DNA of 62,269 bases, the filler included, from Kipferlia bialata (Eukaryota), in assembly GCA_003568945.1 (NCBI GenBank). It is 4 parts of 4 records of this genome, joined end to end, with 100 filler letters (N's around TTAATTAATTAA, not from the genome) between each part and the next. Parts side by side here need not be neighbours in the genome. Positions count along the whole stretch, not along the records: positions 19,661 to 39,193 come from BDIP01000415.1; 3 more parts are not named here. One strand, 5' to 3'. The notes beneath the pieces are model-generated. The model was given only the letters and a program-made list of their open reading frames with translations. It did not search any database and had not been told where the DNA came from. This document shows positions 34,167-35,429 of this stretch, piece by piece; within the stretch, counting starts at the first letter, position 1; every line of letters starts with the position of its first letter. The position numbers were made by a program, and so were the translations under genes.

Positions 34167-35429
34167 GTAGACATACCTGTCTCCTGAGCTCAAGGCATGT
34201 ACTCAGCAGTGCCAATATCCCACCCATGTATGACATGAGTCTGAGGACAGAGGGAGAAGGTGCGACAGCTGATACCACTGATGTGCCTGACATTAGAATC
34301 AAGATGGATAATAATCAGTGTATTTATATTATGCGGGAGACCCATACCCTGCGCTGCCTTCTGGTACACCCAGCATGTGTAGAGCAGGTATCCCCACACA
34401 CCCACAGAGCCAACCTTGCCTAGGGGTAAGAGGTAGTGTATGATACACATAGAACTATTATCCATGGACATGTATATGTATACAGTATCATATCCAACAA
34501 CCTTGACAAGGGGTTAGAGGTAGTGTATACTGTGAATGATAACTATATAGATAGATACAACATACACAGACAGAGCCAACCTTGTCTTAGGGTTAGTGTT
34601 ACAGTACAAGAGAATAGCTGTACTGATTCACCCATACACAACTAAGCTTATTGATCATTTACAAAATATGGAGAGAGCCAGGGATACACTTGTCAATACC
34701 TGCTGCGAGTATGGCGTCCCCTATGTACTTGCCATCCACTGCTATGCTGCCCCTCATCCGCTGGGAGGCAGAGGCACTGGAATCAGTCAGATATATGTAT
34801 ATGTTAATACATAGCTATATATATACATATATACAATGGATACACTGCTATGCTGCCCCTCATCCGCTGGGAGGCAGACGCACTGAGAGTGAGTATACTT
34901 ATATATACTATAAATACTATATAAGCTACATATGCTATGCCTCCCTCGGTCCCCTGGGACACAACGGACATTTATGTGTACATTATGCAAACCTAATTAT
35001 TCCAAGTATTCCTGCTACCCCCAGTATGCCGTATGCCAGGGAGTGATGATATATATATACAGCACATGTACCATAAGATAATGACTACATACCTGATAAT
35101 ACCGAGAATACCGGCTATTCCCAGTATGCCGTATGCCAGCACCGGCAGAGAGGACATGTATGCACATAGTGTATATAATAGTAATAATACCTAATAATTC
35201 CTAGCACTCCTGCCACTCCTAAGATGCCGTATGCCAGGACCGGCAGAGAGGATAACACTATAAACACTATTCATACCTAATTATTCCAAGTATCCCCGCT
35301 ATTCCCAGTATGCCGTATGCCAGCACCGGCAGTGATGACGAGGACAGAGAGGCAGAGGCAGAGACCCAACGCACACTGAACCTGGAGGGTAAGTGACTGA
35401 TATACCATATATATATATATGTATATATC

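What the first reader, a model, noticed from the sequence alone, without database searches (positions are those of the whole stretch)
34992..35335. Seven consecutive codons recoded at third positions in an intronic copy of a TM-encoding exon end
The exon end (minus strand, ~35277) reads GCG GGG ATA CTT GGA ATA ATT (AGILGII). The copy at ~35093 reads GCC GGT ATT CTC GGT ATT ATC (identical peptide), while the preceding codons LPVLAYGILGI are unchanged. The copy at ~35191 encodes LPVLAYGILGVAGVLGII with many synonymous changes, and the copy at ~34993 encodes LAYGILGVAGILGII. No AG acceptor lies between the donor at ~35190 and the ~35093 copy. Such patchy, near-saturated synonymous divergence looks like conversion tracts from a very distant allele.
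Basis: seen in the sequence. Interest (0 to 1): 0.85.

Follow-up and report, generated by a model that had tools for sequence, protein, structure and literature searches.

The report
Stranded exon ends from distant alleles
In the free-living protist Kipferlia, most introns of the two genes examined hold spliced-out partial copies of the neighbouring exon ends that differ from them mainly at silent codon positions, likely left behind by recombination with very different alleles, so a single genome would keep a record of past outcrossing.

Summary
An exon of the Kipferlia bialata meckelin gene (minus strand, 35381-35277, first membrane helix) is followed by three copies of its end, each with its own GT donor. 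Copy 3 matches the exon for 35 nt, then differs at seven consecutive third positions without changing the peptide. DNA contigs span the copies without mismatch at flank depth. A spliced RNA contig uses only the first donor and confirms the frame.

The feature is not local. 33 of 42 introns in two genes hold 68 such copies, in units of about 106 bp that always span one splice site. Their differences are mostly synonymous (0-fold/4-fold ratio 0.18; silent duplicates predict about 0.5). The copies therefore diverged while they were coding.

Best explanation (0.5): recombinational repair or unequal exchange with deeply diverged alleles, alignable only in exons, installs a new exon end and strands the old one. 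The donor alleles were not found, so the mechanism is inferred. Main rivals: indirect selection because arrays often collapse, or a lost hybrid subgenome as template. I found no description in the papers searched.

The parts
26727..38779 (-). Meckelin (TMEM67-like) gene, 29 annotated exons; 24 of 27 introns examined hold exon-end or exon-start copies; last annotated exon doubtful
35277..35381 (-). Functional exon 9 of the annotated model; its end encodes the first membrane helix; spliced at the first donor
35279..35299 (-). The seven codons (AGILGII) of the functional exon
34777..35276 (-). 500-nt GT-AG intron that contains copies 2-4 and one copy of the next exon's start
   Evidence: joint 34776-35277
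35191..35252 (-). Copy 2 of the exon end (two Ile>Val, many synonymous changes), followed by GT
35156..35190 (-). Spacer after copy 2; no AG; no more similar to the other spacers of this array than unrelated spacers are
35093..35155 (-). Copy 3 of the exon end: 35 nt identical to the exon (35148-35114), then seven codons changed at third positions (35115-35095); its donor scores higher than the one used
34993..35049 (-). Copy 4 of the exon end; 5-nt deletion near its 5' end; last six codons identical to the exon; weak donor
34840..34882 (-). Copy of the start of exon 10 behind its own AG, skipped by the RNA
34700..34776 (-). Functional exon 10 (last acceptor used)
35552..35587 (-). Copy of the start of exon 9 in the upstream intron, running into a TC microsatellite
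35465..35499 (-). Second copy of the start of exon 9 with an internal deletion (missed by the anchored search, seen by tblastn)
39366..44008 (-). S8 peptidase gene on another contig with the same architecture; 9 of 15 introns hold copies

Best explanation
The three intronic pieces are spliced-out tandem copies of the exon end with their own donor sites, and they are likely former working exon ends of deeply diverged alleles, stranded by recombination. Shown: each unit is exon end plus GT plus intron start, about 100 bp; the RNA contig uses the first donor and the last acceptor; the differences are mostly synonymous; the same units fill most introns of two genes. Inferred mechanism: between alleles whose introns no longer align, only the short exons can pair. 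A break in an exon would invade the other allele, copy about 100 nt through the splice site into non-homologous intron, fail to find the second end and be closed by microhomology end joining. That would give a new exon end followed by the old one, now inside the intron. Later unequal exchange or conversion inside the exon-derived part would expand the array and make it mosaic. Duplications that do not span exactly one splice site would be removed by selection or be invisible to this search. The copies would look protein-constrained because they did most of their diverging while coding in other alleles. A rough estimate from the donor-type copies puts that allelic divergence near 0.25 at 4-fold sites.
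For: (1) Real DNA: X1 contigs 35119-35327 and 34856-35143 span the copies with 0 differences at depth 374-378 against 388-409 in flanking contigs. They break exactly where a k=31 graph must break at the 35-nt repeat. (2) Silent: the X2 contig joins 35277 to 34776; all 7 listed joints use first donor and last acceptor, 6 of them across introns with copies. (3) Protein constraint: 68 copies, 0-fold 66/1460 vs 4-fold 110/438; donor type 27/920 vs 85/279. Nearest copy of each of 45 arrays only: 47/976 vs 69/294, P=1.5e-6 against the ratio 0.5 of a silent duplicate. Copy vs copy: 28/581 vs 40/171, P=1.7e-10 against 1. Simulated silent duplicates through the same detection give 0.48-0.50 (0.5th percentile 0.28-0.38) against 0.18 observed. 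(4) 4-fold sites of copies keep exon-like GC: 0.59 vs exon 0.60, introns 0.37. GT is kept in 34 of 37 donor copies. (5) Geometry: 0 wrong-side copies; unit length median 106 bp, 5-95% 84-137; spacer shortens as copy lengthens, rho -0.44. (6) Mosaic sharing among the four versions. Neighbouring copies start within 5 nt of each other in 15 of 23 pairs, P=0.001, which fits unequal exchange. (7) Machinery in print: fornicates lack Ku-type end joining and Rad51A and use Dmc1 (PMC8516963, passages). K. bialata has Spo11, Dmc1, Msh2 and Pol theta entries (its Supplementary Data 2 rows). Dmc1 is proposed to tolerate adjacent mismatched triplets better than Rad51 (PMC6719624, abstract and section 17).
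Against: No second allele is visible: no other letters in X1 or X2 at 88% likeness, one protein per gene, nothing in metagenome contigs. The locus would have to have become homozygous since. At least three distinct tails occur in this one array, which needs many alleles at a very high diversity. Farthest copies are not more decayed than nearest ones (ratio 0.135 vs 0.124), so no age order is seen. Acceptor-type copies show a much weaker signal (ratio 0.31 overall; 0.39 nearest, 1.2 on few sites for the others). Only 9 of 28 within-array spacer pairs exceed the 95th percentile of unrelated pairs. Sex has not been observed in metamonads (PMC8516963). Microhomology at the junctions cannot be tested without the template. 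The model does not by itself say why an intron-rich gene at 1-5800 has no copies.
Confidence: 0.5

Rival explanations
1. The arrays are old and stay coding through indirect selection. Deletion or conversion between the exon and a copy, through a shared stretch such as the 35-nt identity, often puts a copy's tail and donor into use, so damaged copies are purged even without high allelic diversity.
For: Copy 3 keeps a 35-nt identical handle just before its recoded tail. Donors stay strong (23 of 37 at or above the 25th percentile of real donors) while the spacers of this array are unalignable. No second allele is needed.
Against: It needs a collapse rate times population size above about 1 at dozens of arrays (inference). 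Such instability should homogenise the copies, yet 4-fold divergence is 0.25-0.30. Copy 4 has a frameshifting deletion. No collapsed form is listed in X1 (contigs drop rare variants).
Confidence: 0.2
2. The template was a homeologous subgenome or paralog, as in an old hybrid or polyploid that has since lost it, rather than alleles segregating in a population. The repair mechanics are the same.
For: It explains deep synonymous divergence with no present second allele and the gene-by-gene patchiness. The species is described as probably diploid from k-mer peaks (PMC5874029).
Against: One extra subgenome gives two haplotypes, but three or more distinct tails occur here. Repeated copying from one template should move the ratio towards 0.5 for most copies, which is not seen. 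No paralog was found.
Confidence: 0.15
3. The copies are used at low level through alternative or non-canonical splicing and are under direct selection.
For: Intact frames and donors. The RNA evidence is one contig of depth 19 that drops rare forms. The spliceosome of this species is reduced and its snRNAs were not found (PMC6679479, passages).
Against: Donor-type copies lack an acceptor (no AG before copy 3) and are partial exons. The products would be nearly the same protein. All 7 listed RNA joints skip the copies.
Confidence: 0.07
4. Ordinary tandem duplications from the same chromatid that then decay neutrally; the seven-codon run is chance.
For: It explains the geometry. Some arrays have similar spacers and nearly identical copies. 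Acceptor-type copies lie nearer to the neutral ratio.
Against: It predicts a 0-fold/4-fold ratio near 0.5 against the exon and 1 between copies; observed 0.18 and 0.21.
Confidence: 0.04
5. An assembly artefact that lines up alleles or strains in tandem.
For: The unit length is close to a short-read length. X1 may be the very data the window was assembled from (caution). No long reads were available.
Against: An independent k=31 assembly of run X1 holds every junction between the copies, without mismatch and at full flank depth. The RNA contig fixes the order at the only ambiguous repeat.
Confidence: 0.03

Closest known systems
Human F7 intron 7 minisatellite with silent 5' pseudo-sites (PMC1557585, abstract seen)
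   Same: The first repeat spans the exon-intron boundary; downstream donors are intact but silent and the most upstream one is used.
   Different: One locus with repeats whose donor sites are identical in sequence. Here most introns of two genes, both donor and acceptor sides, units of about 106 bp, and protein-constrained divergence between copies.
[quoted passage not shown]
   Same: Small tandem duplications involving exon sequence and splice signals reshape gene structure.
   Different: No new intron arises here; an existing intron grows and the exon-derived copy lies inside it.
Mutually exclusive tandem exons (Dscam, recalled; SCN exon 5a/5b, search listing)
   Same: Tandem exon-derived copies under protein constraint inside one gene.
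   Different: Those are whole exons with acceptor and donor that appear in mRNA. These are partial, have one splice site and are skipped.
Silent-cassette gene conversion (trypanosome VSG, Borrelia vls, chicken pseudo-V genes; recalled, no call)
   Same: Untranslated partial copies beside an expressed gene that stay coding-like and show mosaic exchange.
   Different: Those vary the protein on purpose at a special locus. Here the changes are mostly synonymous and occur in unrelated ordinary genes.
Aborted synthesis-dependent repair closed by Pol theta end joining (search listing; details recalled)
   Same: One-sided copying from a template followed by microhomology joining gives tandem duplications or templated insertions.
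   Different: Described as mutation classes in model organisms; not, in the listings seen, as a fixed genome architecture with a 100-bp unit and diverged-allele templates.

Membership tests
Meckelin / TMEM67 (PF09773) | Pfam score above the curated cut-off | tested here: met
   92 bits vs cut-off 25, E 3.4e-26
Meckelin / TMEM67 (PF09773) | The duplicated peptide corresponds to a membrane helix of human meckelin | tested here: inconclusive
   Residues 232-244 align to 7fh1_A from residue 526, whole-sequence E 1.8e-5, but that stretch alone is weak; that it is the first helix is recalled
Splice-site-spanning repeat with silent pseudo-donors (F7 IVS7 type) | First unit spans the exon-intron boundary and downstream donors are silent | tested here: met
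   copy 3 donor scores 13.4 vs 10.4 for the donor used; one RNA contig only
Splice-site-spanning repeat with silent pseudo-donors (F7 IVS7 type) | Units are near-identical minisatellite repeats | tested here: not met
   Spacers of this array are no more alike than unrelated spacers (percentiles 0.04-0.60)
Mutually exclusive tandem exons | Each copy has its own acceptor and donor | tested here: not met
   No AG before copy 3; all 68 copies are shorter than their exon and anchored at one splice site
Mutually exclusive tandem exons | Alternative copies appear in mRNA | tested here: inconclusive
   The single RNA contig uses copy 1 only; contigs drop rare forms
Intron gain by tandem duplication | A new intron is spliced between the duplicated units | tested here: not met
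   One 500-nt intron removes all copies
Gene conversion / unequal exchange from a diverged allele | Patchy tracts of identity and divergence, mosaic sharing among copies | tested here: met
   Runs test P=1.2e-4; incompatible sharing patterns
Gene conversion / unequal exchange from a diverged allele | The donor allele exists with the tract in functional position | tested here: inconclusive
   Not found; only two runs of one sample hold the stretch
Silent-cassette antigenic variation | Cassettes diversify the protein sequence | tested here: not met
   167 synonymous vs 70 non-synonymous differences on 580 vs 1707 sites
Silent-cassette antigenic variation | Ongoing programmed copying into the expressed site | not testable with these tools
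   Needs clonal time series or deep amplicon reads

The most novel reading that the evidence does not exclude
Kipferlia, which lacks Rad51A and Ku and relies on mismatch-tolerant Dmc1 plus Pol theta, has a recurrent repair outcome in which every exchange with a distant allele swaps in a new exon end and files the old one in the intron. Its introns then grow in steps of about 106 bp and form an archive of several population alleles, with silent divergence near 25%, readable from one genome: a new mode of intron expansion, a fossil record of cryptic sex in a metamonad, and thousands of natural tests of first-donor, last-acceptor splice-site choice.
Probability: 0.35. Interest if true: 0.9.

Novelty: new variant of a known kind. 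Interest (0 to 1): 0.74.

Why it matters
Sequence that is spliced out should not keep a protein code, yet here it does across dozens of introns. If the copies are stranded alleles, one genome reports the diversity and recombination history of a protist group in which sex has never been observed (PMC8516963), and it ties that history to an unusual repair kit (Dmc1 without Rad51A or Ku). It also offers a way for introns to lengthen in fixed steps. Whatever the origin, the arrays show a reduced spliceosome picking the first donor and last acceptor among equally strong decoys about 100 nt apart, which makes exon definition versus scanning directly testable in a deep-branching eukaryote. Gene models of this genome may be affected, because a predictor can pick a copy instead of the true exon end.

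Tried and rejected
No whole genome is held for this window, so the count covers two annotated genes only. Reads could be laid only on 33400-37600; RNA and DNA support outside that stretch is untested, and the exon models elsewhere rest on the annotated proteins P0001 and P0002. No RNA holder on record was listed; X2 is a guessed RNA run, but its contig shows 7 GT-AG joints. Metagenome scans by protein (122 pattern matches, none confirmed) and by a degenerate motif (0) found no relative; this is weak evidence of absence. The meckelin search of residues 150-560 returned only P0001 (near lengths only, 7995 candidates scored). Age gradient within arrays: none. Gradient of amino-acid changes along copies: no clear trend. 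A frame-free test on 20 of 29 repeat pairs outside the counted exons gave only P=0.013, and that set includes five pairs from uncounted meckelin ends. Dropped before counting: the last meckelin intron with three further copies (annotation doubtful) and copies with indels at the splice-site end, such as 35499-35465. Two acceptor or donor matches over-extend into microsatellite, which inflates amino-acid changes and works against my reading. Considered and rejected: paralog as present-day template (one protein per gene), cDNA origin (units include intron sequence and GT), programmed DNA deletion (flat depth). The scan's earlier findings returned nothing.

Full report
Observation. On the minus strand an exon at 35381-35277 ends in the codons for LPVLAYGILGIAGILGII and a GT donor. 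Three copies of that end follow, at 35252-35191, 35155-35093 and about 35049-34993, each with its own GT. Copy 3 is identical to the exon for 35 nt and then differs at the third base of seven consecutive codons with no amino-acid change. Over 20 codons the changed/unchanged pattern has 3 runs, P=1.2e-4. Copy 2 carries two Ile>Val and 7 synonymous codons among 17 compared. Copy 4 has one Ile>Val, 3 synonymous codons and a 5-nt deletion. There is no AG between the donor of copy 2 and copy 3. The four versions are mosaic: exon and copy 3 share the middle, exon and copy 4 share the last six codons, copies 2 and 3 share the first two codons, copies 2 and 4 share the Val.

Gene and organism. A neighbouring exon retrieved one protein, P0001, labelled meckelin of Kipferlia bialata; Pfam confirms it (92 bits, cut-off 25). 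It maps to 29 exons at 38779-26727. The duplicated peptide aligns weakly to a hydrophobic stretch of human meckelin from residue 526. The window is a join of contigs with N-flanked linkers; the meckelin piece is 19,533 bp, the contig length given for P0001. A second gene, an S8 peptidase (P0002), lies beyond the linker at 44008-39366.

Is it real and is it silent? Two runs of one sample hold the stretch. Contigs of DNA run X1 cover 35119-35327 and 34856-35143 with no difference at depth 374 and 378, against 388-409 for flanking contigs, and no other letters are listed. Their ends fall exactly where a k=31 graph breaks at the 35-nt repeat. X1 may be the source of the assembly, so it shows that the junction words are in the reads, not that a second sample has them. 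A 3543-nt contig of run X2 (guessed RNA, depth 19) shows 7 GT-AG joints, among them 35277 to 34776. It uses the first donor and the last acceptor each time; 6 of the 7 introns hold copies. The donor of copy 3 scores higher than the one used (13.4 vs 10.4). Rare isoforms cannot be excluded from contigs.

The pattern is gene-wide. A codon-blind search anchored at splice sites found 68 copies in 33 of 42 introns (24 of 27 in meckelin, last intron left out; 9 of 15 in the peptidase): 37 exon ends after a donor and 31 exon starts before an acceptor. Non-adjacent exons gave 1 hit in 258 tests, and no copy lay on the wrong side of its exon. Units measure a median 106 bp (5-95%: 84-137), and the spacer shortens as the copy lengthens. 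Introns lengthen by about one unit per copy. Similar repeats are dense at 26-48 kb and 55-62 kb and nearly absent at 1-26 kb, although 1-5800 has as many strong acceptors per kb.

The copies diverged under protein constraint. Differences from the working exon: 167 synonymous on 580 sites, 70 non-synonymous on 1707; 0-fold sites 66/1460, 4-fold 110/438; donor type alone 27/920 and 85/279. A duplicate that is silent from birth should give a ratio near 0.5 against the exon and 1 against another copy. Using only the nearest copy of each of 45 arrays gives 47/976 vs 69/294 (P=1.5e-6 against 0.5); copy against copy gives 28/581 vs 40/171 (P=1.7e-10 against 1; pairs are not fully independent). Simulated silent duplicates passed through the same detection give 0.48-0.50 against 0.18 observed. 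4-fold sites of copies keep exon-like GC (0.59, exon 0.60, introns 0.37). Against this: acceptor-type copies are much less clear (0.31 overall), they lost the AG more often (23 of 31 kept, against GT in 34 of 37), and a frame-free test on other repeat pairs gave only P=0.013.

Mechanism. Since mutation in an intron cannot see codons, the copies either diverged while coding elsewhere or are still exposed to selection. I favour the first (0.5). Between alleles with unalignable introns only exons can pair. Repair started in an exon would copy about 100 nt through a splice site into foreign intron and be closed by end joining, leaving the old exon end stranded. Unequal exchange within the exon-derived part would then expand and shuffle the array, which fits the shared start points (15 of 23 neighbouring pairs within 5 nt, P=0.001) and the mosaic. 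Subtracting decay (twice the 0-fold rate) from the 4-fold rate of donor copies leaves about 0.25 allelic divergence at birth (rough, uncorrected). These steps are inference. The published gene inventory is compatible: no Ku or Rad51A in fornicates, Dmc1 retained (PMC8516963, passages), and Spo11, Dmc1, Msh2 and Pol theta entries for K. bialata (supplement rows; one supplement file was unreadable). Dmc1 may tolerate adjacent mismatched triplets (PMC6719624, abstract and section 17). The weak points are that no second allele was found, that no age order appears within arrays, and that only 9 of 28 within-array spacer pairs are clearly related, none of the 3 in this array. Rivals: indirect selection through frequent collapse (0.2), a lost subgenome as template (0.15), rare splicing use (0.07), neutral duplication (0.04), artefact (0.03).

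Comparison and novelty. It works like the F7 intron 7 repeat in splice-site choice (PMC1557585, abstract) but is not a minisatellite. It is not intron gain by duplication (PMC2891723, passages), not mutually exclusive exons and not an antigenic cassette (see membership tests). In the species' genome paper I read parts 1-2 of 6 and term passages: it reports 124,912 introns and probable diploidy, with 0 occurrences of 'duplicat' or 'heterozyg' (PMC5874029; supplements not read). PMC6679479 (passages) treats only spliceosome content. Searches listed no paper that describes such arrays; the library lacks most subscription journals, so this is not proof of absence.

Verdict. A real, silent, gene-wide architecture with a strong and unexpected coding signature; mechanism inferred. 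Novelty: new variant of a known kind. Interest 0.74.

Noticed in passing
window 19561-19660, 39194-39293, 50958-51057: Three 100-base linkers (N runs around a six-frame stop word) join separate contigs; the meckelin and S8 genes are not neighbours in the genome.
   Followed up: yes
window 26850-27740 (-): GC donors in arrays: the exon ending near 27180 and its three copies all have a GC donor; the exon ending near 27728 has GC while its three stranded copies have GT. The annotated last exon of P0001 looks doubtful. No RNA data here.
   Followed up: no
window 27898-27938 (-): An acceptor-type copy differs from the exon by a three-base Ser-to-Ser change (AGC vs TCA), a sign of long divergence under protein constraint.
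   Followed up: partly
window 1-5800 (-): An intron-rich gene (17 strong acceptors) has no exon-end copies at all, unlike meckelin; the process is gene- or region-specific.
   Followed up: partly
window 55000-62269 (-): Another gene or genes with the same donor and acceptor arrays and third-position differences; not annotated here.
   Followed up: partly
window 6368-6970 (-): A donor-type array of about six units with related spacers, in a contig that otherwise lacks copies.
   Followed up: no
window 47957-50957 (-): An intronless open frame of about 1000 codons made largely of five-residue repeats, unusual in this intron-rich genome; the pentapeptide-repeat label is recalled, not tested.
   Followed up: no
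acceptor-type copies in both genes: They lose the AG more often and carry more changes in the first exon bases than donor-type copies (13/118 at 0-fold sites in the first 6 nt); possibly selection against competing acceptors.
   Followed up: partly
window 18123-18698 (+): A long exon that reads like a PP2A-family serine/threonine phosphatase (label recalled from motifs).
   Followed up: no
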